Assembly: GCA_964358005.1 (NCBI GenBank)
Contig: CAYHNH010000002.1
Location: 18,596 to 82,595, forward strand
DNA: 64,000 nt
Direction: 5' to 3'
DNA from: an uncultured Candidatus Saccharibacteria bacterium
GTDB taxonomy: Bacteria; Patescibacteriota; Minisyncoccia; Phycocordibacterales; PALSA-1337
Made by a program: the position numbers and the translations under genes. A model generated the notes under the pieces. That model searched no databases and was not told the DNA's origin. It saw only the letters and a program-made list of their open reading frames with translations. Below, one piece after another: positions 2,775-61,255 of the stretch (positions within the stretch are counted from its first letter, which is position 1; each line of letters begins with the position of its first letter).

Positions 2775-3002
2775 ATGGATACCGCTCCTCAACCAAAGAA
2801 TACCGCGACCGGAACCGTCGTAGAGGCGTTACCGGACACGCTGTTTCGTGTTTCGATCACAAATGACGGGACTGAAACCATCGTACTGGCCTACTTGGCT
2901 GGAAAGATGAGGATGAACAGGATCCGTGTATTGGTAGGCGACCGGGTAGAGATAATGCAGGATCCATACGGAGGAAGAGCGCGCATCATAAAACGGTTAT
3001 AA
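2775..3002 (+). CDS. infA: translation initiation factor IF-1
   Basis: 75-aa S1-like protein ([49 protein letters not shown]) immediately upstream of rpmJ/rpsM. Confidence 0.9.
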
Positions 3003-3003
3003 A

Positions 3004-3972: not shown

Positions 3973-4578
3973 ATGCAAATCGGCCCACGCTACAAAAAAG
4001 CTCGCTATCTAGGTGCTCCTATATTCAGGAAGACCCAGACGCAGAAATACGCTATGCGATCTCAGCGCAAGGTCAAGACCACCAAGCGCCGTGGCGGCAA
4101 GAGCGAATACGGCCGTCAGATGCTAGAGAAACAGAAGGCCCGTTTCAGCTATGGAGTCTCGGGAGGACAGTTCTCAAATTACGTCAAGAAGGCCCTGCAG
4201 GCTTCAGGCGATAACGCCAAGAACCTGATCAGCATTCTCGAGGGCCGCCTCGATAATGTGATAGTTCGCGCAGGCTTTGCGCCGACGCGTTCGGCTGCTC
4301 GCCAGATGGTCTCTCACGGCCATATCACGGTCGGTGGAAAGAAGGTGAACATCCCGTCATATCAGGTAAGGACTGGCGAGGTGCTGTCAGTCCGCTCCGG
4401 CAGTGTCGGCAAGGCGATCTTCTCGAAGGTCAGCGAGGATGTGAAGGCCACCAAAGTGCCGACATGGATGAGCGTGGATGCCGACAAGAAAGAGATACGC
4501 ATATCGGGTGAGCCGACAGCGGATGCGACAGATCTTTTGTTCGATGTCCGTTCGGTCTTGGAGTTCTACACCCGCTAG
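3973..4578 (+). CDS. rpsD: 30S ribosomal protein S4
   Basis: 201 aa with the S4 N-terminal domain and an S4 RNA-binding domain (LDNVIVRAGFAPTRSAARQMVSHGHITVGGKKVNIPSYQV). Confidence 0.92.
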   Translation: MQIGPRYKKARYLGAPIFRKTQTQKYAMRSQRKVKTTKRRGGKSEYGRQMLEKQKARFSYGVSGGQFSNYVKKALQASGDNAKNLISILEGRLDNVIVRAGFAPTRSAARQMVSHGHITVGGKKVNIPSYQVRTGEVLSVRSGSVGKAIFSKVSEDVKATKVPTWMSVDADKKEIRISGEPTADATDLLFDVRSVLEFYTR

Positions 4579-10210: not shown

Positions 10211-10221
10211 TTCATCCTAGG

Positions 10222-10264
10222 TACCTATGCATTTTGGGACAGATTTTGTCTCAAAACGCATAGG
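10222..10264 (+). repeat. 43-nt palindromic intergenic element, copy 1
   Basis: TACCTATGCATTTTGGGACAGATTTTGTCTCAAAACGCATAGG lies 12 nt after the dnaK stop. A near-identical copy is at 16942..16984. Confidence 0.7.
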
Positions 10265-10543
10265 GAGTCGCACCCACGTATGCAGTTCTTAGATAAAAAG
10301 GCCCTCGTAGTTTCCCGGAAGCCTGTTATGAGCAGGGTTCGGGGAAACGAACGAGGGCCGGCAGATGACTTTTCAGTCCTTGGACTGCTAAAAGGGTCGT
10401 TGTTCAACCATCGTCAGGCCATGGGCCGAAAACGAGTTGCTTGAGAAATACGAGGATTGCCAATAGAACCGAGCCGAAATCCTTCAACGGTTCCCAAACC
10501 TCTTCGCGAACGAGTTCCTTGATCATGGAAGTAGAAGTCGAAG

Positions 10544-16881: not shown

Positions 16882-16941
16882 GCATTAGCCAGACAGTCCC
16901 GCCGGCCCTTTTTCTAGGAGCTTCATACATGGGGGGGCGAC

Positions 16942-16984
16942 TACCTATGCATTTTGGGACAGATTTTGTCTCAAAAGGCATAGG
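16942..16984 (+). repeat. 43-nt palindromic intergenic element, copy 2
   Basis: TACCTATGCATTTTGGGACAGATTTTGTCTCAAAAGGCATAGGTA lies 60 nt after the RND permease stop. Two further perfect hairpins follow at 17001..17020 and 17021..17042. Confidence 0.7.
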
Positions 16985-17089
16985 TACTTAAGATGAACTA
17001 CTTCTTTGTCATGAAAGAAGCCTATAACAAAGATGTTATAGGTCTCATGTACGAACAGGTGTGAGGGCCGCATGGGTAGCGCTTAGATA

Positions 17090-17140
17090 ACAATAAACCC
17101 GCCTCACGACAAAGCTTGGGGGCTTATTGTCGGGGCGGGC
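17090..17140 (-). terminator. rho-independent terminator for the 17157..17450 gene
   Basis: On the minus strand, the stem CCCGCC(tca)CGACAA...TTGTCG(g)GGCGGG is followed by TTTATTGTT. Confidence 0.5.
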
Positions 17141-17156
17141 AAAGCGGCGCATCAGA

Positions 17157-21437: not shown

Positions 21438-22574
21438 ATGAAAATCCTTCTTGCAGGCGGCGGCTCAGGCGGCCATTTCTACCCGATAATAGCCGTCGCC
21501 CAGGCGATCCGAGACATCGTGGCCGAGCGCAAGCTCATACCTCCGGAGCTCTATTACATGGCTTGCGAGCCTTATAACGCCCGCATCCTCTTCGAGAGCG
21601 ATATCCAGTTCATCGGAGTCCCGACAGGCAAGAGGCGCCGGTATTTCTCGCTCCTCAACTTCACCGACATATTCAAGACCGCATACGGTTGCCTGACGGC
21701 GCTCCTAAAAGTCTATTCCGTGTACCCAGACGTCGTATTCGGCAAAGGAGGGTACCAGAGCTTTCCGGCTCTGTTCGCTGCAAAGCTCCTGCACATTCCA
21801 GCCGTCATCCACGAATCCGACTCACACCCGGGCCGCGTCAATCTCTGGGCAGGCAAGTTCGCGAGGAAGATCGCCATCTCATATCCGAATGCCGCGCCGT
21901 TCTTCGGCGCGCGCCAGCAGGAGAAGATAGCGGTGACAGGGAATCCAGTCCGTCCAGACATAGCCAATCCGCTCCGTAACGGCGCCCACGAATTCTTGAA
22001 GCTCGAACAGGGGACCCCGGTCGTCCTGATACTCGGCGGATCGCTAGGTTCGGCCAGCATCAATGATTCAGTCATGGAGGCACTGCCGGAACTTTTGAAC
22101 CGCTACCAGATCATCCATCAAACAGGTAAGAATAATATCGAGGAGATAAGAGCGACGACTGGGGTCATCCTGAAGGACCATCCTTATGCCTACAGGTATC
22201 ATCCATTCGACTATCTAAACGAGCTCGCCCTGCGAATGTCAGCCGGAGCCGCTGATCTGGTGGTCTCACGAGCGGGCTCGACCATATTCGAGATCGCAGC
22301 CTGGGGCGTGCCCTCTATCATAATCCCGCTCTCTCCAGAGGTCTCTCACGACCAGAATGCCAACGCTTTTGCCTACAGCTCGACTGGTGCGGCTTCGGTC
22401 ATAGAGGACAGTAACCTGCACGCCCACATATTGATCTCTGAAATAGACCGCATACATGGCACGTCTAGTATCAAGGAAACCATGAAACAGAGCGCCCAAG
22501 CCTTTGCCCGCCAGGATAGCGCCAAAGTCATAGCTGGGGCCATATTGGATATTGCGCTCGCCCACGAGAAGTGA
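21438..22574 (+). CDS. murG: undecaprenyldiphospho-muramoylpentapeptide beta-N-acetylglucosaminyltransferase
   Basis: 378 aa with MurG motifs (LLAGGGSGGHFYPIIAVAQ; GGSLGS). A TATAAT at 21425-21430 lies 7 nt upstream of the ATG. Confidence 0.9.
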   Translation: MKILLAGGGSGGHFYPIIAVAQAIRDIVAERKLIPPELYYMACEPYNARILFESDIQFIGVPTGKRRRYFSLLNFTDIFKTAYGCLTALLKVYSVYPDVVFGKGGYQSFPALFAAKLLHIPAVIHESDSHPGRVNLWAGKFARKIAISYPNAAPFFGARQQEKIAVTGNPVRPDIANPLRNGAHEFLKLEQGTPVVLILGGSLGSASINDSVMEALPELLNRYQIIHQTGKNNIEEIRATTGVILKDHPYAYRYHPFDYLNELALRMSAGAADLVVSRAGSTIFEIAAWGVPSIIIPLSPEVSHDQNANAFAYSSTGAASVIEDSNLHAHILISEIDRIHGTSSIKETMKQSAQAFARQDSAKVIAGAILDIALAHEK

Positions 22575-22633
22575 TATCTTAAAAACTCGATAAAGTCGTA
22601 TTAGAAGCCTTAATAGCTTAGCGTTTAAAACAT

Positions 22634-23137
22634 ATGAATCCAGAATCATCAGGTTTGAGGACGTGGCAGTGGGTCGTAACAGCAGTAGTCGTCATCATCC
22701 TTATAATTATAGGGATCATGGTGTTCGGCAAGAAATCGCCGACAGCAGAGGTCCCGGCTCCGATAGCCACGACCACCCCCTCCAATACTCCGGGGGTCAA
22801 CGCCATAGTCATGTCAGACCAGTATCCTGGCAACGTAGTCTACCTATCTTCAGTCCAGGTCACCAAAGCAGGCTGGGTCGCTATCCACAAGGACGATGCA
22901 GGCAAGCCTGGCGCAATCATAGGATCAGCCTGGGTCAATGAGGGAGTCAGCCCAGTGAAAGTCACCCTGACATCTCCGATGATCGACGGCTCGACATACT
23001 ACGCCATGCTGCACTCCGATGACGGAGACAAGAAGTTCGATGCCGTGAAGGATGCACCTCTCAAGGATTCCAACAACAACGTCGTGATGCGCGTCTTCCG
23101 AGCTACGGTGACGGCGGATCAGAACACGAAGGGGTAA
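22634..23137 (+). CDS. hypothetical membrane-anchored extracytoplasmic protein
   Basis: 167 aa with an N-terminal TM helix and a Thr/Pro-rich linker. No recognised domain. Confidence 0.5.
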   Translation: MNPESSGLRTWQWVVTAVVVIILIIIGIMVFGKKSPTAEVPAPIATTTPSNTPGVNAIVMSDQYPGNVVYLSSVQVTKAGWVAIHKDDAGKPGAIIGSAWVNEGVSPVKVTLTSPMIDGSTYYAMLHSDDGDKKFDAVKDAPLKDSNNNVVMRVFRATVTADQNTKG

Positions 23138-23512
23138 ACAGGTGGCAGGAAAAGGGATTGATCTCAGAGACACAACGTCGGCTCCTTCACGGGAGCCGCG
23201 TCTCGTTCTCGGATGTCTTCCTGTATCCACACTATCATTTGCTTAGAGGAAGTGACTGTCGTCACTTCCTCCGCTGCTTACCCATACAGCATCTATCTCA
23301 GTCAGCCATCCTGCGAAAGGTCTCTTCGATCCAATTCCTTTTCCTGCCTCACACCCTTTACTACAGTAAAGGGTGACATCCCGAGCACATGAGGAGGATG
23401 AGGCAAGGAGACATTGCGAGCGCGACTGGCGCGAGCACGAGGAATTTCCCAGCAGGGAAATATCCGTGTCTCCTGGATGCATTCTCCTCATGTGCTAAGA
23501 GGGGATCGTTTT

Positions 23513-23521
23513 TGCTATAAT
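23513..23521 (+). promoter_or_regulatory. extended -10 (TGCTATAAT) 6 nt upstream of the gltX start codon, leaderless-type
   Basis: TGCTATAAT lies at 23513-23521 and the ATG at 23528. Confidence 0.45.
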
Positions 23522-23527
23522 GCTTTC

Positions 23528-24979
23528 ATGAACAAAGTAGTAACCCGCTTCGCCCCGTCGCCGACTGGATTCATGCACATAGGTGGAGTCAGGACAGCCA
23601 TTTTTGCCTATCTGACCGCCCGCAAATACGGCGGCACATTTATCTTGCGCATCGAGGACACTGACAAGGAGCGCGAGGTGGAGGGCTCAATAGAGCACAT
23701 CCAGAAGGCTTTACGCTGGTTAAACCTAGAGTGGAACTACGGCCCGGATAAGCCGGGGCCATTCGGCTCATGCATCCAGTCGGAGAGATTGCCAACCTAC
23801 AAGGAATTCGCACTGAAACTCATAGAAAAAGGCCTGGCATACCCTGATCCATATACGGCCGGCCAGGTTGAGACATTCCGCAAGAAGGCCGAGGCGGAGA
23901 AGAGACCGTTCCTTTACCGCGATCATCGCCCGAAGGAATTCGGCGTATGGGATGGTACCAAGCCCCTGCGCCTCAAGGTGCCAGAGGTGAAGCGCTGGCA
24001 CTGGAAAGACGCCGTCCGCGGAGATCTCGAGGGCGGCGAGGAGATGCTAGATGATTTTGTGCTCATAAAGAGCGACGGCTACCCGACATATAATTTCGCC
24101 CACATCATAGACGACCACCTCATGGGCGTCACACATATACTGCGAGCCGATGAATTCATTTCTAGCACCCCTAGATTCTTGAGCCTCTATCAGGCTCTCG
24201 ACATCGAGCCGCCTGTCTTCGCGACTCTGCCGCCCATACTACGCGACGACCGCACCAAGAAGCTCGGCAAGCGCGATGGCGCTAAAGATGTCATGGAATA
24301 TGAGAGGGAGGGCTATCTATCCGAAGCCATGCTCAATTACCTGACCCTACTCGGCTGGCATCCGTCAGACGACCGCGAGATACTCTCACTGGATGAGATT
24401 CTCAAGGAGTTCTCGCTCGAGCGCATCCAAAAGGCTGGCGCGGTCTTCGATGAGGAAAAGCTCAAATGGTTCAACCGCCAATACATCCTTCGGAAGTCTG
24501 ATGAGGAATTCTCTGAACGAGCGCAGACATTCCTGCCGGAATGGATGTCTACGAAGACCACCGCCTTCAAGCGGTTGCTACCGGTGCTCAAAGACAAGAT
24601 CCAAGTCTTTGGCGAGATATCTGGTCTTTTCGGTGAGGGTGGGGAACTGCATTTTATAAAAGCCCTGCCTGACTATACGGTCGAACTGCTTTTGTGGAAG
24701 AAGAATCCAGACAGAGCAGCCGCCTTGGCCAATCTGAATGAATGCAGAGACTTGCTCGGAAAGATCAGGAACGAGGATTTCTCTGCCGAGGCGGTCAAGG
24801 CGGCCGTCTGGCCATACGCCGAAGCCAAGGGCAGGGGAGAAGTCCTGTGGCCACTGCGGATGGCTCTCACGGGGCAGGACAAGTCCCCCGATCCATTTGT
24901 TTGCGCGGCAATACTGGGCAAGGATGAGTCGCTTTCCAGGATAGACCAGGCCGTCAAAAAATGCATCTCCGAAAAATAA
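23528..24979 (+). CDS. gltX: glutamate--tRNA ligase
   Basis: Class I aaRS (RFAPSPTGFMHIGGVRTAIF) with a KMSKS-type region and an anticodon-binding C-terminus. The internal Met of the track ORF 23414..24979 is chosen because the upstream extension is not protein-like. Confidence 0.88.
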   Translation: MNKVVTRFAPSPTGFMHIGGVRTAIFAYLTARKYGGTFILRIEDTDKEREVEGSIEHIQKALRWLNLEWNYGPDKPGPFGSCIQSERLPTYKEFALKLIEKGLAYPDPYTAGQVETFRKKAEAEKRPFLYRDHRPKEFGVWDGTKPLRLKVPEVKRWHWKDAVRGDLEGGEEMLDDFVLIKSDGYPTYNFAHIIDDHLMGVTHILRADEFISSTPRFLSLYQALDIEPPVFATLPPILRDDRTKKLGKRDGAKDVMEYEREGYLSEAMLNYLTLLGWHPSDDREILSLDEILKEFSLERIQKAGAVFDEEKLKWFNRQYILRKSDEEFSERAQTFLPEWMSTKTTAFKRLLPVLKDKIQVFGEISGLFGEGGELHFIKALPDYTVELLLWKKNPDRAAALANLNECRDLLGKIRNEDFSAEAVKAAVWPYAEAKGRGEVLWPLRMALTGQDKSPDPFVCAAILGKDESLSRIDQAVKKCISEK

Positions 24980-33854: not shown

Positions 33855-33917
33855 TTCCCGATAAGTTTACCTCATTGGGCCACTTTTAGGGCCTTTGCAC
33901 TGTGGATATCGTGACAT

Positions 33918-33950
33918 GAAGAAACCCCTCCGGAAGGAGGGGTTTCTTTG
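33918..33950 (-). terminator. hairpin terminator (GAAACCCCTCC ggaa GGAGGGGTTTC)
   Basis: A perfect 11-bp stem lies downstream of the 33965..34441 gene. The flanking T-rich tracts are partly within the stem. Confidence 0.4.
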
Positions 33951-33964
33951 ATCCATCGGATGGA

Positions 33965-38018: not shown

Positions 38019-38035
38019 GTTAACTCCTTTAGGGA

Positions 38036-38156
38036 AGGTCGTGCAATCAGTCGAAACAGACTTTCGGAGGAGATTTCTAGCAGGAAATCTCCGAGAACAG
38101 AACCGACCCTCTGCAGAGGGTCGAGTTCGGGTCTGTTGAGGTTGATTGCACGACCT
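38036..38156. other. nested multi-stem structured element between convergent genes
   Basis: A perfect 13-bp outer stem pairs AGGTCGTGCAATC (38036-48) with GATTGCACGACCT (38144-56). It encloses three hairpins (CGAAA/TTTCG; GGAGATTTC tagcag GAAATCTCC; CGACCCTC tgca GAGGGTCG). Confidence 0.55.
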
Positions 38157-38169
38157 TTCGCATGTATAC

Positions 38170-48090: not shown

Positions 48091-48138
48091 AACTCCCCTA
48101 TTTGATTGTTAATGTTCCAATTCTTCTGGACGAATCTC

Positions 48139-48174
48139 GGAAAAAGAAAATCCCGACTTTCGTCCAGTCGGGAT
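48139..48174 (-). terminator. intrinsic terminator / possible attenuator in the MFS leader
   Basis: On the minus strand, the stem GATCCCGACT-ggacgaa-AGTCGGGATT is followed by TTTCTTTTTCC, about 50 nt upstream of the MFS start codon. Confidence 0.5.
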
Positions 48175-48421
48175 CTTTCCAAAGCAATGAGATGAGATTA
48201 ATGGAGATTAATTCATGGGCATTTGAAAAACATCACGACTGGGCGCAAGCGAACCGGTAAATCCGGTATTCTGCGCACCGACGATCGTATAACCGCAATC
48301 CTGATGGAGCGGCATGGACCAATTCGTGTTGTTCTTATATGCGTGCATATATAAACCGTACAGCATGTGCACAGACATGTCAACATAGCTATGGTGAATA
48401 GCCTCTAATATACTTACCCGA

Positions 48422-56178: not shown

Positions 56179-57792
56179 CTACGCTTTCCTAAATGGCTCC
56201 AATTCCACCACGAATGTCGAGCCCTTGCCTTCTCCGGCTGATTCCGCCCTTATGGTGCCATGATGTGCCTCCACCATCTGCTTGGCCACGAACAGTCCGA
56301 GTCCGGTGCCCTTGATGTTGACCTTGTTGGCATTGTTGGCTCGCGAGAATTTCTGGAAGAGATGCGGCAATATCTCCGGATCTATGCCTATGCCAGTGTC
56401 CTTGATCTCAAATATGATGACCTGCCTCTTGTGATCGAATGACAGAGTAACTGCAACCGAGCCGGAAGGCGTGTATTTCACCGAATTATCTACGAGGTTG
56501 GCTATGACCTGCTTCAGCTTGTCGCGGTCAGCGGTTATGCGGTAATCGGTACCGTTGTTCTCGGCAGCGAAACTGAAGTTCAAGCCCTTACCCTCAATGT
56601 TCGGCTTGAGCTCGGCTATGACGTCCTCGACCATGAGTTTGAGGTCAATGGTCTCGAATGTATATTTCATCGTTCCGAGCTCTATCCTGCTGATATTAAG
56701 GTAGTCGTTAACTATACTGACCAGTGTGTTCGTAGAATCAAATATGCGCTCTATGCCCTCCTTGGCCGCCGGCGGCAGTTCTCCCATGTCGCCTTCGAGC
56801 AATAGAGAGCCGTAACCCTTCATGGCCGTAAGCGGCGCGCGCAGCTGATGCGTAGCGAACGACACGAACTCTGACTTCTGCCTATCCAGCTCCGTGAGGC
56901 GCGTATTGGCCTTCTCCAGATCATCTGCCAGCTTTTGGATGCGTTCGCGTTGTTCAATCTCGTTAAACACATTCTTTACCAACCAAATTCCAAATATAAC
57001 AGTCAAAACAAGGATAACTCCACCAATAATTGCATCCTCAAAACTCTGTGCAAGTACAACCCTAAATAGTAAGGTTATCCAGATCGTTGCTGTCAGCAAT
57101 TGAGCTGTTATAACCCTAATATCAAACAGCTTATATTTTAAAATCGCATAGGCAATAATGAGTGGATAAAATGCAAATAATATCACTGGAAACGGTGGAA
57201 TCAGTACATTGAAGGTCAGAAGGAAAACACTACTACCACCTATAAATCCAGCTACCGATGAAAAAAGGATGTACTTAAGTCTGTGACCTTCCTCTTTTGA
57301 AACCTTCTTTATCTTTAATGATAGTAATATCAACGCAAAAATTACCGTCGCAAAAAAGTAAACAGTAAATGCAACATACAGCGGCCCTGCATTTGGTACA
57401 TAGGGCAAAGTTCCCTTAGAGAATACATCGGTAACAAATAATACAGAAGGCGTAACGGATGCAAAATATATAGCTATTATTCCAAAAACAAATAAAAAGG
57501 GCTTATATTTTTTTAATTCTTCAATAACAGTAATTATAAAAAACAAATAAAAAAATGGAATAAATGATGCACCGATATGTAAAATAATATCGCTTAAAAC
57601 TGCGGCTTCTTTACTTGAGGCTATTAGCATACTGTAATAACCAAAACTCCATATGCCTGTTGATATAGAGAGCAAAAGCCAAATTATGCTTTTAAGTTGC
57701 TTCGAGTTACTTAAAAAAACCAACAATCCAGAACCGAGAGCAACTAAACCACCTATAAAAAGAGACAAGCTATAGTATGTAAAGAAAAACAT
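56179..57792 (-). CDS. sensor histidine kinase with N-terminal 7TM receptor domain (orphan)
   Basis: 7 TM helices, a coiled-coil linker, a HisKA H-box (SFATHQLRAPL), and HATPase_c N/G1/G2 boxes. Confidence 0.85.
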   Translation of the reverse strand: MFFFTYYSLSLFIGGLVALGSGLLVFLSNSKQLKSIIWLLLSISTGIWSFGYYSMLIASSKEAAVLSDIILHIGASFIPFFYLFFIITVIEELKKYKPFLFVFGIIAIYFASVTPSVLFVTDVFSKGTLPYVPNAGPLYVAFTVYFFATVIFALILLSLKIKKVSKEEGHRLKYILFSSVAGFIGGSSVFLLTFNVLIPPFPVILFAFYPLIIAYAILKYKLFDIRVITAQLLTATIWITLLFRVVLAQSFEDAIIGGVILVLTVIFGIWLVKNVFNEIEQRERIQKLADDLEKANTRLTELDRQKSEFVSFATHQLRAPLTAMKGYGSLLLEGDMGELPPAAKEGIERIFDSTNTLVSIVNDYLNISRIELGTMKYTFETIDLKLMVEDVIAELKPNIEGKGLNFSFAAENNGTDYRITADRDKLKQVIANLVDNSVKYTPSGSVAVTLSFDHKRQVIIFEIKDTGIGIDPEILPHLFQKFSRANNANKVNIKGTGLGLFVAKQMVEAHHGTIRAESAGEGKGSTFVVELEPFRKA

Positions 57793-57815
57793 GTTCTGTG
57801 GATTGATTATAACAT

Positions 57816-59471
57816 CTATTTCATCATTCCTTGATATAGGTATTTGTTGCCCAATTCAGATGCATTTGGTGTAGATATTAGAAATTCAGCAAGATCCTCT
57901 ATTGAGGAAAAAACTATGTTTGTCCCATGATGAGGCTCAATATGTACATCACCCATATACAAGGATTTGGATTTTAATGCATTTTCAAATACGTCCATTT
58001 TACCGGCTAATGCATATATTGAGGATTGAATGGTAGAACAAGCTACGTGTGGATTATCATATCCATGTACATAAAAACCCTCCGGAATAAGATTATGTTG
58101 AATATATCCATGCCAATGGACAAGAGCAACCCCATTTTTTGCCATACGGTTAGAAAATTCTTGTTGGATTCCAGTAGACTTCTCTATACGATTAAGAACT
58201 GACGAAATGATTGCATTACCAACGGCATGAGCGAGAATTACTCTGGTGTCAAACGAGGGACGATAGTCTCTCCTAATACGACAGCCTATTGGAGTCCTTA
58301 AATACATTTTCCCATTCACAAGACCCATGAGAAAAATGTCGCGATGGGGATCTATTTTTGTTTTATCCGAACCAGACCTTTGTGTTAAAACCCAGACATC
58401 AGGTACTTTTAAAAAAAACCTGCCCAGCGGCAATTCCATGATTAAGTAAAGCTCGTCGTTCTTAATGAAATAATCCTGACCAAGTTTAATAGAATGTTTA
58501 GAAATATCCTCGTCAGAAAGAGGTACTAATCCTACAGGGACCGATGGAAGCTGCCTGGCGAGAAATCCATAACTCATACCGCTCCTGTGATCTAAATGAA
58601 GCTTTCCAATCCACTTATAAAAACCAGACCTAAATGGCAAATCTTCAACTTTTTTACCAGGCGGGTACAAATTAGTTTTATTAAACTTTTCTCCCCCGGT
58701 AACGAAATCTTTTAGAAGAGTTTTATATGGGTCTGAATCTACATCAAAAGATTCTGGCTCTACTATGAAATCCTTAAGGTAAGGTGGTCTAATTGGAGCA
58801 GCTACCTTTGGTATAAGTGCCTTTAAAATATTTCCCTTAAAATTTTTATGTAAGGGATACACCGGGTGTGAAGCATTGAAATTATAAATTATAAACTTAT
58901 CCGCAGAGACAAGTATCGCAATTTGTGTCATATGATAAGAAAAAATATTCATCGCGGCATCAAAGTGCGTAGAGAAGTTGCTTGTTTCATCTATGCCTGC
59001 AGGACATTTTAATACAGTAATTATTGTGTTCTGCGTAAAACTAGATGTGTAATCCATAGGCAACTGAGAGGATCTATTCTCACCCAAAGCAACAACTGTT
59101 ATTCCTTTTCTTATTCGCATTCTTTTAAAAAGGTTTAAAAAAGCTCCAGCGTGAATATTATGATAGGAATGGTCTTTGTTGATCATCTCTAAAACCGTAT
59201 ATAAAAAATTATTTGCGCAAATCTTTAGGAATCTTTTTAAAATTGTTGCAATAGAAATTTTCTCGAGAGATTTTTCATATGGAACTATCCTAACTCCTAG
59301 CTCTAGAAGTGCAGCCTCGAGCAAATCTTTAAAAATCAAGGTCTCCCTACTACAACTTTCAGAACTATATGGAAAAAAAGTAAAAACTAGTTTTTTGGCC
59401 ATCTGCTCAGGCTGAAGATCAGTAGAGGTTTCGATGCCCAGAATTCGCTCTATCGCTAATTTACTTAACAT
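57816..59471 (-). CDS. hypothetical 551-aa cytoplasmic protein, AT-rich, co-operonic with histidine kinase
   Basis: No TM helix or signal peptide, and no recognised motif. It lies 23 nt upstream of the histidine-kinase gene on the same strand. Confidence 0.6.
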   Translation of the reverse strand: MLSKLAIERILGIETSTDLQPEQMAKKLVFTFFPYSSESCSRETLIFKDLLEAALLELGVRIVPYEKSLEKISIATILKRFLKICANNFLYTVLEMINKDHSYHNIHAGAFLNLFKRMRIRKGITVVALGENRSSQLPMDYTSSFTQNTIITVLKCPAGIDETSNFSTHFDAAMNIFSYHMTQIAILVSADKFIIYNFNASHPVYPLHKNFKGNILKALIPKVAAPIRPPYLKDFIVEPESFDVDSDPYKTLLKDFVTGGEKFNKTNLYPPGKKVEDLPFRSGFYKWIGKLHLDHRSGMSYGFLARQLPSVPVGLVPLSDEDISKHSIKLGQDYFIKNDELYLIMELPLGRFFLKVPDVWVLTQRSGSDKTKIDPHRDIFLMGLVNGKMYLRTPIGCRIRRDYRPSFDTRVILAHAVGNAIISSVLNRIEKSTGIQQEFSNRMAKNGVALVHWHGYIQHNLIPEGFYVHGYDNPHVACSTIQSSIYALAGKMDVFENALKSKSLYMGDVHIEPHHGTNIVFSSIEDLAEFLISTPNASELGNKYLYQGMMK

Positions 59472-59545
59472 TTAATTGGGTTAAACCAGGGTAGTGGATA
59501 TACGAGTATTATTGTATCATAGGAATTTGACCACTACTTATAGTT

Positions 59546-61255
59546 ATGACAATCACAATATATTCAATATTAAACTGGATAACAGGGCTGATTCTTATTT
59601 CGGTAGCCTTTGCCATATATTTTCCAAGTGATAAATCACTTTCCGCAAGACTTTGTTCATTACTTTCGCTGGTAACAGGAGTATGGAGCTTGTTTATAGC
59701 TTTATCAGTTTCCGCAAATGACCTTTTTGTTGGGCTTATATTGCTAAAATCATGTCACTTTCTTGGAACACTAATTGCATCAGTTTTTATATTATTTTCA
59801 CTATCATATCCTAGTACAAAAAAAATAAAACCCGGAATAATCGCTGCATTTGCCATTGCTGAATTTATATTTGTATATCTAATCTTTTTCACTGACACAA
59901 TAATTCTAAATTCTCTGCTTTTACCGAATTTAGAATACTTTGCCTGGGAGTATGGCTCATTGCAGATATTTTTTGATATTTACTTTATTTTTTGTTGGAT
60001 AATTGGAATATTTGTACTTTATAACAAATTAAAGAGCTGTAGGGACGTAGAAATTACCAAAAATCTACAACTCATGCTAATTGCATTCATAATAAGTATT
60101 ACACCACCAACCTTTCTTACAATACTTTTACCGCAACTCGGAATTTTTGATTATTATTGGCTAAGCCCACTCTCCTGCTTATTTTGGATTATTGTTATCT
60201 CATACTCAATAACACGACATCATCTATTTAGGATAAAGGTTGTTGCCGCACAATTGATTACCTTTGTTCTCTGGATATTTATCCTCATCAGGATATTACT
60301 GGCAACCAATCCAAAGGAAATCATTATTGAGGGCACACTTCTTGGAATTACAATTATATCTGGAGTGTTTCTCGTAAAAGCAGTATTAAAGGAAACAAGA
60401 CAAAGAGAGAAAATTGAGCAATTGGCAAACAAATTACAGGATGCCTACAGGATAACTAGTGACCTCAACCACACCCTCGAAGCCAAGGTTGCGGCGCAGA
60501 CAGTGGAGATACGCAAGGCTTACGAGGCCGAGAAGCACGCTCGCCTGGAGCTGGAGAAGCTCAACGATGCCAAGGACCAGTTCATAATGATAACCCAGCA
60601 TCATTTGAGGACTCCGGTCACAAGCATGCTCTGGGCCATAGAATCGTCGCTCCAGGGAGCCTACGGGAAGATGGGCGCGGCGCTTCGGTCCGTTCTCGAA
60701 GATGCCCAGACATCCGGAAAGCGTCTGATGAAGATAGTCGATGATTTCTTGAACATAACTGCCATAAAGATCGGCACTAACATCTTGAATATATCCAAAG
60801 TCAGTCTGAAACCGGCCATGGATGACATTCTGCTGGAATTGAAGGGCAGCATAGACAAAATGAGGCTCATGGTTTCGTTCCCTGCTGATGGTAATAGCTG
60901 GCCAGAACTGCCGGTAGATTACGACAAGATGCGCGAGAGTCTCTTCATAATCATGGAGAATGCCGTGAGATACAACGAGGAAGGCGGCTCTGTGAAGATA
61001 GCAACGTCCAGGCAGGAGGATCGATTCGTGATATCGGTGGAGAATACCGGTCTCGGCATATCCGGCGAGGAGTCGACAAGGATAGGCAACGCTCTGTTCT
61101 ACAGAGGTGACTATGCCAGGAAGGCCTACCCCATTGGCATGGGAATCGGGCTGTCTGTCGTAAAGGCGATCATCAGGGCCCATCATGGGACTTTCAGCAT
61201 CACCTCCGAGGGCAAAGGTAAGGGTGCCAAAGCGTCGGTCTCCCTTCCCATATGA
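59546..61255 (+). CDS. sensor histidine kinase with N-terminal 7TM receptor domain (orphan; paralog of 56179..57792)
   Basis: Same architecture as the 56179..57792 kinase: 7 TM helices, an H-box (ITQHHLRTPV), and HATPase_c. The two linker regions align (KYKLFDIRVITAQLL vs RHHLFRIKVVAAQLI). Confidence 0.85.
   Translation: MTITIYSILNWITGLILISVAFAIYFPSDKSLSARLCSLLSLVTGVWSLFIALSVSANDLFVGLILLKSCHFLGTLIASVFILFSLSYPSTKKIKPGIIAAFAIAEFIFVYLIFFTDTIILNSLLLPNLEYFAWEYGSLQIFFDIYFIFCWIIGIFVLYNKLKSCRDVEITKNLQLMLIAFIISITPPTFLTILLPQLGIFDYYWLSPLSCLFWIIVISYSITRHHLFRIKVVAAQLITFVLWIFILIRILLATNPKEIIIEGTLLGITIISGVFLVKAVLKETRQREKIEQLANKLQDAYRITSDLNHTLEAKVAAQTVEIRKAYEAEKHARLELEKLNDAKDQFIMITQHHLRTPVTSMLWAIESSLQGAYGKMGAALRSVLEDAQTSGKRLMKIVDDFLNITAIKIGTNILNISKVSLKPAMDDILLELKGSIDKMRLMVSFPADGNSWPELPVDYDKMRESLFIIMENAVRYNEEGGSVKIATSRQEDRFVISVENTGLGISGEESTRIGNALFYRGDYARKAYPIGMGIGLSVVKAIIRAHHGTFSITSEGKGKGAKASVSLPI

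What the first reader, a model, noticed from the sequence alone, without database searches (positions are those of the whole stretch)
23138..23527. 390-nt ORF-free, highly structured region upstream of gltX
The spacer holds three perfect hairpins and then a nested multi-branch structure:
- GGCTCC ttcac GGGAGCC at about 23179-23198.
- GAGGAAGTGAC tgtc GTCACTTCCTC at 23246-23271, an 11-bp stem.
- CACCCTTTA ctacag TAAAGGGTG at 23352-23375.
- GCACATGAGGAG (23385-96) pairs with CTCCTCATGTGC (23484-95) over about 87 nt. This encloses AGGAGACA/TGTCTCCT and ATTTCCC agca GGGAAAT.

The gltX -10 element lies downstream of all this, directly before the ATG. So the structures are not an obvious 5' leader, and no T-box consensus (AGGGTGGNACCGCG) is present. 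The region could encode an unrecognised ncRNA, or be a stack of terminators or insulators for the upstream gene.
Basis: seen in the sequence. Interest (0 to 1): 0.55.

Follow-up and report, generated by a model that had tools for sequence, protein, structure and literature searches.

The report
Palindromic repeat cluster upstream of gltX
The structured 390-nt spacer is a cluster of palindromic intergenic elements, and one belongs to a large, apparently undescribed family of branched-hairpin repeats found across the tiny genomes of Patescibacteria (CPR) bacteria.

Summary
Every hairpin is present, and the spacer folds far better than shuffles (z = -9.65 as RNA, -10.1 as DNA).

It is not a gltX leader, not a T-box and not any Rfam family. 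It resolves into three units:
- D1, 23144-23348.
- D2, hairpin 23352-23375.
- D3, 23384-23496.

That gave 98 covariance-model hits and about 78 distinct cores. Each element has a long outer stem, often a tandem G.A loop, and a conserved three-way-junction core. Covariation is strong: 94.6% of cells paired, 19 of 25 pairs with double changes, 0 of 500 shuffles as good.

A divergent relative lies at 38035-38157. D1 may be a third member on the minus strand, but this is tentative.

The elements behave like REP/BIME/MITE-type repeats. They are multicopy, intergenic and found in either orientation. They are flipped between orthologous loci, amplified in tandem, and present or absent between 90-98% identical genomes. 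Pairs are almost purely Watson-Crick.

Relatives with the same gene order carry a plain terminator plus a leaderless gltX promoter at this spot.

Most likely this is an insertion-tolerant gene boundary filled with palindromic repeats that act as a read-through barrier. A protein-bound structured RNA is not excluded.

The parts
22634..23137 (+). Upstream gene: small DUF7282 protein (context; its stop codon begins the spacer)
   Evidence: Pfam PF23951, E = 8.7e-15. The order MurG-DUF7282-gltX-M23 peptidase is shared with L234-L238.
23144..23348 (.). D1: a 205-nt branched palindromic unit. It is closed by arms 23144-23171 / 23320-23348 and contains perfect hairpins at 23179-23198 and 23246-23271. 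It may be a divergent superfamily member read on the minus strand.
   Evidence: Inverted repeats I2, I6 and I4; MFE structures. No homologue in 1.6 Mb of held loci. Read on the minus strand, it shows GA/GA flanking AGAGAC/GUCUCU and the motif CCGAGAAC, as in E2. The R3 hit at 23164-23223(-) scores 17.6 bits, E about 0.01, but a hit inside a coding region scores higher. Membership is therefore tentative.
23352..23375 (.). D2: isolated perfect 11-bp hairpin with no U-tract
   Evidence: Inverted repeat I5. No homologues found.
23384..23496 (+). D3: member of the long-stem, three-way-junction element family. The outer stem is 23384-23400 / 23480-23496 and a purine-rich internal loop follows. P2 is 23406-23412 / 23468-23474. 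P3 is 23415-23439 with GA/GA. P4 is 23443-23467.
   Evidence: R1 scores 110 bits, E = 3e-23; R2 scores 82.8 bits. The family alignment A4 shows covariation. R3, built without any D3-type sequence, finds it at 25.2 bits, E = 4.7e-5.
23405..23475 (+). Conserved core of D3: ACAUUGCGAG...CGAGCA-YNA-GGAA...AUAUCCGYGU
23378..23513 (+). Extended D3 hairpin: base helix AUCCC 23378-82 / GGGAU 23502-06, followed by CG and UUUUU at 23509-13. This is a possible read-through terminator for the DUF7282 transcript.
   Evidence: MFE of 23370-23515 is -74.6 kcal/mol, z = -7.8. The consensus terminator scan is negative, so this is inference only.
23513..23530 (+). gltX promoter-like extended -10 (TGCTATAAT, 23513-23521) and the ATG at 23528: a probably leaderless mRNA
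   Evidence: Sequence. The same TATAAT to ATG spacing of 6-7 nt is seen in L024, L234 and L235.
38035..38157 (+). E2: a second, divergent superfamily member. It starts 17 nt after the stop of rpmA (L27, 37746-38018), between convergent genes.
   Evidence: Inverted repeat I2. The fold gives z = -9.5 with a GA/GA loop. R2 scores 21.2 bits, E = 2.7e-4. Homologues are L176 4899-4978(-) and L114 7571-7656(+).

Best explanation
The spacer is not a single RNA gene or a gltX leader. It is a cluster of palindromic intergenic elements at an insertion-tolerant gene boundary, between the DUF7282 gene and the leaderless gltX promoter.

The 3' unit, D3, is a genuine member of a large, unannotated repeat family of Paceibacteria (Patescibacteria/CPR). 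Each element has four features:
- an outer stem of roughly 7-47 bp whose sequence differs between loci;
- often a tandem G.A internal loop;
- a helix P2;
- a conserved three-way junction carrying two hairpins, P3 (itself with GA/GA) and P4 (with a bulged A and an ANCA loop).

Shown here:
- The family is multicopy and intergenic, and occurs in either orientation.
- Its core is inverted between orthologous loci.
- It is amplified in tandem, and gained or lost between near-identical genomes.
- Its helices are kept almost purely Watson-Crick.
It therefore propagates and is maintained like REP/BIME/ERIC/MITE-type elements, at the DNA level.

Inferred, not shown:
- Read-through transcripts from DUF7282 fold into very stable branched hairpins.
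- These replace the simple intrinsic terminator found at this spot in relatives. They would act as a 3'-end barrier or insulator ahead of the gltX promoter.
- The conserved, strand-specific core is the recognition module for whatever factor copies or maintains the element.
For: Family and structure:
- Core homologues were first found in L017 and L023 by blastn/nhmmer.
- 69 + 26 covariance-model hits followed.
- The control, 33 chance pattern matches in viral contigs, gave no model hit.
- Covariation over 71 distinct cores: 94.6% of cells paired against 76% in shuffles; 19 of 25 pairs changed on both sides; 0 of 500 shuffles as good. Slid controls gave 32-61%.

Repeat-like behaviour:
- Two or three copies per locus in L114, L140, L120, L145, L175, L206 and L223.
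- All four arrangements relative to flanking genes occur, about 50/50.
- No bias against GC skew or coding strand.
- The core is inverted at orthologous sites: L114:2486(+) against L175:1554(-); the window (+) against L017/L023 (-) downstream of DUF7282; and relative to trmD in L223 against L191.
- Tandem triplication in L223 against a single copy in L202.
- Present in L120 but absent in L139 and L228, whose flanks are 88-98% identical. The arms are part of the extra DNA.
- The site filled in L206 holds an unrelated ~440-nt insert in L161.

DNA-like pairing: G.U 19 and A.C 19 of 1747 cells.

Local context:
- Relatives with the same synteny (gltX 67-72% identical) have only a hairpin plus U-tract terminator and TATAAT here.
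- L013 has no spacer at all.
- Other lineages carry unrelated long-stem structures at the same boundary: L011 z = -7.1, L024 z = -6.5.
- D3's extended stem is followed by UUUUU.

Superfamily: R2 and R3 cross-detect E2 and D3.
Against: - No transposase or other partner gene was seen near any copy. Neighbours are housekeeping genes.
- No target-site duplication is visible in the one clean filled/empty comparison.
- Copy number appears low in some genomes. There were 2 pattern hits on a 761-kb contig, 1-2 copies in this 64-kb window, and 2 among 84 gltX-anchored loci.
- The core carries conserved unpaired nucleotides and strand-specific tandem G.A loops. GA/GA is the first helix interruption in 21 of 88 copies, against 0 for TC/TC.
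- Between L017 and L023 the element is better conserved (core 66 of 71 positions, arms 21 of 25, from the sequences) than the flanking coding DNA (71-73%). This suggests selection on one folded strand, as for a functional RNA.
- No canonical terminator or promoter is detected in the spacer.
- D1 and D2 have no detectable relatives, so their assignment rests on analogy.
- Nothing on transcription could be tested.
Confidence: 0.55

Rival explanations
1. D3-type elements are a functional structured RNA: a protein-binding sRNA, or an RNA processing or stability module. One specific strand folds into the three-way junction with tandem G.A motifs and is recognised by an RNA-binding protein or RNase. 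Their multicopy state reflects repeated use in many transcripts.
For: - Strong covariation in all four helices.
- Invariant unpaired positions.
- Strand-specific GA/GA loops: 21 of 88 copies against 0 for TC/TC. Non-Watson-Crick cells are mostly A.G or G.A (52) rather than C.U or U.C (12).
- The element is more conserved than flanking genes between L017 and L023.
- All three copies in the L140 type IV pilus operon are co-oriented with the genes.
Against: - Orientation relative to the flanking genes is random. About half the copies would therefore be transcribed only as antisense.
- Many copies lie 0-15 nt from both neighbours, leaving no room for their own promoter. No U-tract follows them.
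- Wobble pairs are almost absent and are as rare as A.C. That is atypical for RNA-level selection.
- Copies show presence/absence and tandem copy-number polymorphism.
- The conservation of CATTGC, GAGCA, AGGAA and ATCCG is partly imposed by the search pattern.
Confidence: 0.25
2. The functional form is single-stranded DNA. The T-shaped three-way-junction hairpin would be the recognition and cleavage substrate of a strand-specific DNA enzyme. Candidates are a Y1/HUH transposase, as for REP/RAYT and IS200/IS605 ends, or a structure-specific nuclease. That enzyme would mobilise the element during replication.
For: - Pairs are purely Watson-Crick with no wobble excess.
- The fold is equally strong with DNA parameters, z = -10.1.
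- There is strand-specific conservation without any transcriptional orientation.
- Flip-flop of the core between orthologous loci resembles hairpinned DNA termini. This comparison rests on general knowledge and is an analogy only.
- Gain, loss and tandem amplification occur.
Against: - No candidate enzyme gene was found near any copy.
- There is no orientation bias against GC skew, the proxy for the replication strand.
- There are no conserved flanking cleavage motifs or target-site duplications.
- Outer arms differ between copies within one genome (L114, L140), unlike REP or IS ends.
Confidence: 0.15
3. The structures are a cis-regulatory 5' leader of gltX: a T-box, riboswitch or attenuator.
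For: The position is upstream of an aminoacyl-tRNA synthetase gene on the same strand.
Against: - No T-box or other Rfam hit, even at E <= 10.
- The -10 box lies between the structures and the ATG, with conserved spacing of 6-7 nt in relatives.
- Closest relatives lack the structures altogether.
- D3 relatives sit next to unrelated genes in either orientation.
Confidence: 0.02

Closest known systems
REP/BIME and REPIN elements of Gammaproteobacteria
   Same: Extragenic palindromic repeats that are multicopy and lie in both orientations. They cluster in mosaics and tandem arrays between genes (L223, L128, and this window's D1-D2-D3). They form stable hairpins at mRNA 3' ends, and a strand-specific folded form is thought to be recognised.
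   Different: REPs are 20-40 nt simple stem-loops with a conserved GTAG or CGTC head, and their partner is a RAYT transposase. Here the unit is 110-160 nt and has a conserved three-way-junction core. Its arms can differ entirely between copies. No GTAG head and no RAYT gene were seen.
ERIC/IRU, Correia (CREE), RUP, BOX, bcr1 and other MITE-like intergenic repeats
   Same: Imperfect palindromes of 100-170 nt in intergenic regions. They are co-transcribed with neighbours, occur in either orientation, and are polymorphic between strains. They are credited with effects on mRNA stability or termination.
   Different: In those families the termini (TIRs) are the conserved part, and many show target-site duplications. 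Here the centre is conserved and the arms are variable. No duplication was seen in the one clean comparison.
T-shaped hairpins of parvovirus ITRs, and the folded ends of IS200/IS605 or integron attC sites (single-stranded DNA substrates)
   Same: A long stem capped by two small hairpins forming a three-way junction. The internal part occurs in two inverted ('flip/flop') states. Pairing is Watson-Crick only, and non-canonical positions are strand-specific.
   Different: This is an analogy only. These elements are chromosomal and internal, not termini. No Rep, HUH or integrase partner was found. attC sites conserve structure rather than a central sequence.
T-box leaders upstream of aminoacyl-tRNA synthetase genes
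   Same: A long structured region upstream of an aaRS gene.
   Different: There is no T-box sequence, no specifier or antiterminator architecture and no Rfam hit. The promoter lies downstream of the structures.

Membership tests
T-box leader (Rfam RF00230) | Match to the covariance model, including the conserved T-box sequence | tested here: not met
   No hit at the gathering threshold in the window, nor at E <= 10 in 23000-23700.
T-box leader (Rfam RF00230) | Lies in the 5' UTR of the regulated gene | tested here: not met
   TGCTATAAT at 23513-21 lies 6 nt from the ATG. The same spacing is seen in L024, L234 and L235. Transcription starts were not measured.
Any Rfam 15 family | Score at or above the curated gathering threshold | tested here: not met
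   Zero hits in the 64-kb window. In 10 loci carrying more than 15 copies, the only hit was a 16S rRNA fragment in L145.
Intrinsic (Rho-independent) terminator | G+C-rich hairpin followed immediately by a U-tract | tested here: inconclusive
   The consensus scan found 0 sites in 22500-23700. However, D3's extended stem (base helix GGGAU, 23502-06) is followed 2 nt later by UUUUU. Relatives have canonical terminators at this position.
REP / BIME (RAYT-associated) | Short (20-40 nt) palindrome with a conserved GTAG or CGTC head | tested here: not met
   Units are 110-160 nt with a branched core, and no conserved tetranucleotide is seen at the arm ends.
REP / BIME (RAYT-associated) | Multicopy, extragenic, both orientations, clustered in mosaics | tested here: met
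REP / BIME (RAYT-associated) | Cognate RAYT (Y1 transposase) gene in the genome | not testable with these tools
   Only loci of up to 15 kb were available. None of the neighbours scanned was a transposase.
MITE | Conserved terminal inverted repeats shared by copies | tested here: inconclusive
   Arms are shared within the digester/activated-sludge subfamily. They are unrelated between copies in L114 and L140, and between the window and L023.
MITE | Target-site duplication flanking insertions | tested here: not met
   In L120 (filled) against L139 (empty) there is no duplication. 18 nt of the empty site are replaced, and about 95 nt of other DNA is co-inserted. This is a single case.
MITE | Presence/absence polymorphism between close genomes | tested here: met
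   L120 against L139 and L228, with flanks 88-98% identical; L206 against L161, with flanks 96-98% identical.
Kink-turn (L7Ae-type) RNA motif | Three-nucleotide bulge followed by tandem sheared G.A pairs between two helices | tested here: not met
   The loops are GA/GA (0-nt bulge) or GGA/GA (1-nt bulge) in P3, and UGA/GAA(U) below P2. Tandem G.A is present, but the asymmetric 3-nt bulge is not.
Long-stem three-way-junction element family defined here (models R1, R2) | Match to the core model, with P2, P3 and P4 and the conserved junction nucleotides | tested here: met
   D3 scores 110 bits with R1 and 82.8 bits with R2. It is also found by R3, built only from E2 and L176 (25.2 bits). For D1 the result is only 17.6 bits, E about 0.01, which is inconclusive.

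The most novel reading that the evidence does not exclude
The conserved T-shaped core is a three-way junction with two or three tandem G.A loops, a bulged A and ANCA loops. It would be the recognition module of a still-unknown Patescibacteria-specific system: either a new class of protein-bound structured RNA, or a new hairpin-recognising DNA mobilisation machinery. That system would explain three features together: the locus-specific but perfectly paired long arms, the flip-flop of the core, and the element being better conserved than neighbouring genes.
Probability: 0.3. Interest if true: 0.75.

Novelty: new variant of a known kind. Interest (0 to 1): 0.6.

Why it matters
Patescibacteria (CPR) have genomes of about 1 Mb that are generally regarded as streamlined and repeat-poor (general knowledge). 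Almost nothing is annotated in their intergenic DNA.

A widespread branched-hairpin repeat family would be a new entry for RNA and repeat databases. It has strong covariation, is absent from Rfam 15, and did not turn up in the literature searches made here.

It would also help annotation, because ORF callers read through these elements.

It gives a handle on three questions in uncultivated bacteria: how these genomes rearrange, how operon boundaries are insulated, and what protein recognises the core.

Its architecture, a conserved centre with variable but perfectly paired arms, is unusual among known bacterial repeats.

Tried and rejected
- Rfam at the gathering threshold and at E <= 10, tRNA/tmRNA search, and blastn against phages all found nothing relevant.
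- Viral-contig pattern scan: 33 matches, about the number expected by chance by my own estimate. None passed the covariance model.
- Pseudogene remnant, for example of the 2-hydroxyacid dehydrogenase that sits here in L017 and L023: blastx was negative.
- Small ORFs in the spacer: no Pfam support.
- Arms acting as guides to other sites in the window: no extra matches.
- Association with a specific neighbouring gene: the apparent 'trmD in 18 loci' cluster was an artefact of ORFs reading through the repeat. Only 3 loci encode TrmD.
- GIY-YIG co-occurrence: sporadic only.
- Orientation bias against GC skew or coding strand: none.
- U-tract or A-tract enrichment next to the arms: not seen. The first attempt, with unconstrained duplex folding, over-extended the arms and was discarded.
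- Close relatives for covariation of D1 and D2: none exist in the protein database. The next gltX is 72% identical, and those loci lack D1-D3.
- Hammerhead, SRP, 6S, RNase P and kink-turn readings were considered from the sequence and rejected. The junction motifs do not fit and Rfam is silent.
- Literature searches found no description.

Full report
**1. Context**

The window comes from a Patescibacteria (Paceibacteria) genome.
- gltX-anchored relatives are named Paceibacterota, Kaiserbacteria or Nomurabacteria MAGs.
- The identical gltX protein is on a Hainich groundwater contig, well H41, 0.1 um fraction.
- Genes around the finding are ScpB, FtsW, MurG, a small DUF7282 protein (22634-23137), then the spacer, gltX (ATG at 23528), an M23 peptidase and others.

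**2. The observation**

These close hairpins 1 and 2 into a single 205-nt domain. The spacer therefore resolves into three units:
- D1, 23144-23348.
- D2, hairpin 23352-23375.
- D3, 23384-23496.

The fold is far beyond chance.
- z = -9.65 on the + strand and -8.2 on the - strand with RNA parameters.
- z = -10.1 with DNA parameters.
- It is the most structured intergenic gap of the window (mononucleotide shuffles).

There is no coding signal.
- The mechanical ORFs have no Pfam match above threshold.
- blastx against all ORFs of related loci matches only the gltX N-terminus.

**3. What it is not**

- No Rfam 15 family reaches threshold anywhere in the 64 kb, and nothing meaningful appears at E <= 10 in the region.
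- There are no tRNA or tmRNA genes.
- It is not a gltX leader. TGCTATAAT (23513-23521) lies 6 nt before the ATG and there is no Shine-Dalgarno sequence.
- The same TATAAT to ATG spacing of 6-7 nt recurs in L024, L234 and L235. gltX is therefore most likely leaderless. This is an inference, because no start site was measured.

**4. D3 has many relatives**

- blastn and nhmmer of the spacer against 79 gltX-anchored loci matched only the D3 core. The hits were in L023 and L017, on the strand opposite to gltX and again just downstream of a DUF7282 gene.
- The three sequences show compensatory changes in every helix.
- A covariance model (R1) and a degenerate pattern were then used. The pattern scan of viral contigs gave 33 hits. 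That is roughly what I estimate from the size of the collection, and none passed R1.
R1 found 69 + 26 matches in them.
- These come from peat, groundwater, lakes, soil, anaerobic digesters and activated sludge.
- Hosts are Patescibacteria wherever this could be checked:
  - L017 and L023 are named MAGs.
  - L192 lies on the same 856-kb contig as a gltX 70% identical to the window's.
  - The digester subfamily's TrmD is 73-80% identical to proteins named Paceibacterota or Nomurabacteria.
- None of 10 loci carrying more than 15 copies gives an Rfam hit other than a 16S fragment.
- Six literature searches found no description.

**5. Anatomy of the family**

Reading from the outside in, each element has:
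- an outer stem of about 7-47 bp whose sequence may be unrelated between copies, even within one contig (L114, L140);
- frequently a tandem G.A internal loop;
- helix P2, ending in ..AC / GU..;
- junction AU;
- P3: UGC, then a GA or GGA loop, a 4-bp stem, a GACG or GACUG loop, GA, then GCA;
- junction YNA;
- P4: GGAA..., an ANCA loop, then ...U-A-UCC with a bulged A;
- junction GY;
- P2'.

On 71 distinct cores (alignment A4), one search gave:
- 94.6% of cells form standard pairs, against 76.2% in column shuffles.
- 19 of 25 pairs show changes on both sides, in 314 cells.
- 0 of 500 shuffles reach the observed values.
- Sliding the partners drops pairing to 32-61%.

Caveat: CATTGC, GAGCA, AGGAA and ATCCG were required by the search pattern. 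Their invariance is therefore partly ascertainment. The stems were unconstrained Ns.

**6. A superfamily, with a second copy in the window**

- An inverted repeat at 38035-38157 starts 17 nt after the rpmA stop, between convergent genes. It has the same architecture, including GA/GA below P2.
- The core model R2 finds it at 21.2 bits, E = 2.7e-4.
- Conversely R3, built only from this element (E2) and its L176 homologue, finds D3 at 25.2 bits, E = 4.7e-5. It also finds D3-type copies in L190 and L145.
- L114:7571-7656 is an intermediate form carrying the same GGA/GA and U-A-U motifs.
- Read on its minus strand, D1 shows three matching features:
  - GA/GA flanking AGAGAC/GUCUCU;
  - GAC-CUUUCG;
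  - CCGAGAAC followed by a hairpin, as in E2.
- D1's R3 score is only 17.6 bits, E about 0.01, and a coding-region hit scores higher. Its membership is therefore tentative.
- D1 and D2 have no homologues in 1.6 Mb of held loci.

**7. Behaviour**

Copy number and position:
- Copies are multicopy: three in L114 and L140; two in L120, L145, L175 and L206; three in tandem in L223.
- Many lie 0-15 nt from both neighbouring genes.
- Orientation is random relative to flanking genes (about 33 against 30), and relative to GC skew and coding strand.
- Neighbours are housekeeping genes: pilB, pilC, rpoD, tig, rplT, infC, rpmA and trmD. No transposase was seen.
- An apparent 18-locus 'trmD' association was an artefact of ORFs reading through the repeat.

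Rearrangement:
- At orthologous sites the core is inverted:
  - L114:2486(+) against L175:1554(-);
  - the window against L017 and L023;
  - L223 against L191 relative to trmD.
- L223 has three tandem 258-nt units where L202 has one.
- L120 carries a copy, with its arms, that is absent from L139 and L228. Their flanks are 88-98% identical and no target duplication is visible.
- The L206 site holds an unrelated ~440-nt insert with a small GIY-YIG ORF in L161.
- In the digester lineage the elements are interleaved with other palindromic units and solo arms. That resembles the D1-D2-D3 stack here.

**8. RNA or DNA?**

- Pairs are almost purely Watson-Crick. G.U occurs in 19 and A.C in 19 of 1747 cells. 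There is thus no wobble enrichment and no strand bias from wobble.
- That is what DNA-level maintenance of palindromes would give, for example template-switch correction, which is a named mechanism from general knowledge. Folding on both strands would give the same pattern.
- Yet one strand is special:
  - Non-canonical cells are mainly A.G or G.A (52) rather than C.U or U.C (12).
  - The first interruption of the helix below the core is GA/GA in 21 of 88 distinct copies, and TC/TC in none.
  - The P3 GA/GA is replaced by Watson-Crick UC/GA in a few copies.
- Between L017 and L023 the core is 66 of 71 identical. The arms are 21 of 25 identical, with all four differences compensated (sequences). 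Flanking genes are 71-73% identical.
- Some single-stranded form of the modelled strand is therefore under constraint. Whether it is RNA or ssDNA cannot be decided here.

**9. The locus itself**

- Relatives with identical synteny (gltX 67-72% identical) have, between DUF7282 and gltX, just a hairpin plus U-tract terminator and the TATAAT box. Their gaps are 102-130 nt.
- L234 has extra structured DNA in a 295-nt gap.
- L013 has no spacer.
- Other lineages carry unrelated long-stem structures at the same boundary: L011 z = -7.1, L024 z = -6.5.
- L020 has an E2-like element downstream of DUF7282.
- The boundary is therefore an insertion-tolerant hot spot.
- In the window no canonical terminator remains. 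D3's stem is extended by AUCCC/GGGAU and followed by CG-UUUUU. The element may now provide the end or barrier of the DUF7282 transcript. This is inference.

**10. Verdict**

- The finding is real and leads to a large, apparently undescribed family.
- The best-supported reading (0.55) is a cluster of REP/BIME/MITE-like palindromic repeats. They have an unusual conserved three-way-junction core and act at most as a read-through barrier at this locus.
- A dedicated protein-bound structured RNA (0.25) or an ssDNA recognition element (0.15) remain open.
- A gltX leader is excluded for practical purposes.

Noticed in passing
window 38035-38157 (+): A second long-stem, three-way-junction element (E2) starts 17 nt after the rpmA stop, between convergent genes. 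It folds with z = -9.5 and is a divergent relative of D3. Homologues lie in L176 and L114. In L175 and L114 a D3-type copy occupies the same post-rpmA position.
   Followed up: yes
window 23513-23530; L024 about 2985-3003; L234 1493-1511; L235 2944-2962: gltX appears to be leaderless. A TATAAT box, often preceded by TG, sits 6-7 nt before the ATG with no Shine-Dalgarno sequence. This spacing is conserved in several Paceibacteria lineages.
   Followed up: partly
window 16882-17156, 10211-10543, 33855-33964, 48091-48207: Other intergenic gaps are also unusually structured: z = -6.6, -4.2, -5.8 and -3.7 with mononucleotide shuffles. They include a 20-bp hairpin at 16942-16986 and a perfect 13-bp hairpin at 33919-33948. 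Neither R2 nor R3 matched them.
   Followed up: partly
L223 4975-5618; L128 2220-2350; L166 1700-2140: In the digester/activated-sludge lineage the elements sit in mosaics with at least two other palindromic repeat units. Examples are ACAAGAATAGCTTCCACAAAAGAG...CTCTTTTGTGGAACTATTCTTTG and TTACCACCAGTTTCGCGACCGCGAAATTGATGGTAA. Solo arms also occur, and L223 carries a 258-nt tandem triplication.
   Followed up: partly
L161 about 4100-4540, against L206 5160-5350: At a site where L206 carries the palindromic element, the 96-98% identical L161 carries about 440 nt encoding a small GIY-YIG (YhbQ/Slx1-like) ORF on the opposite strand. One other GIY-YIG ORF was seen, in L167. No consistent association emerged.
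   Followed up: partly
L011 2567-3000; L024 2839-3000; L234 1214-1508: Other Paceibacteria carry unrelated long-armed, highly structured inserts at the same boundary upstream of gltX (z = -7.1 in L011, -6.5 in L024). None matches the D3 or E2 models.
   Followed up: partly
loci L114-L233 (ORF calls): ORFs that read through the repeat cluster into a spurious 'protein family'. There were 20 ORFs in 18 loci, first mistaken for a trmD association. Automatic annotation of these genomes may contain such artefacts.
   Followed up: yes
window 57000-60000: G+C content drops to 0.33-0.38, against about 0.52 elsewhere in the window. This may be a laterally acquired segment. It was not examined.
   Followed up: no
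L145 10127-11094: A partial 16S rRNA gene lies on a contig carrying two D3-type copies. It could be used to place that host phylogenetically.
   Followed up: no
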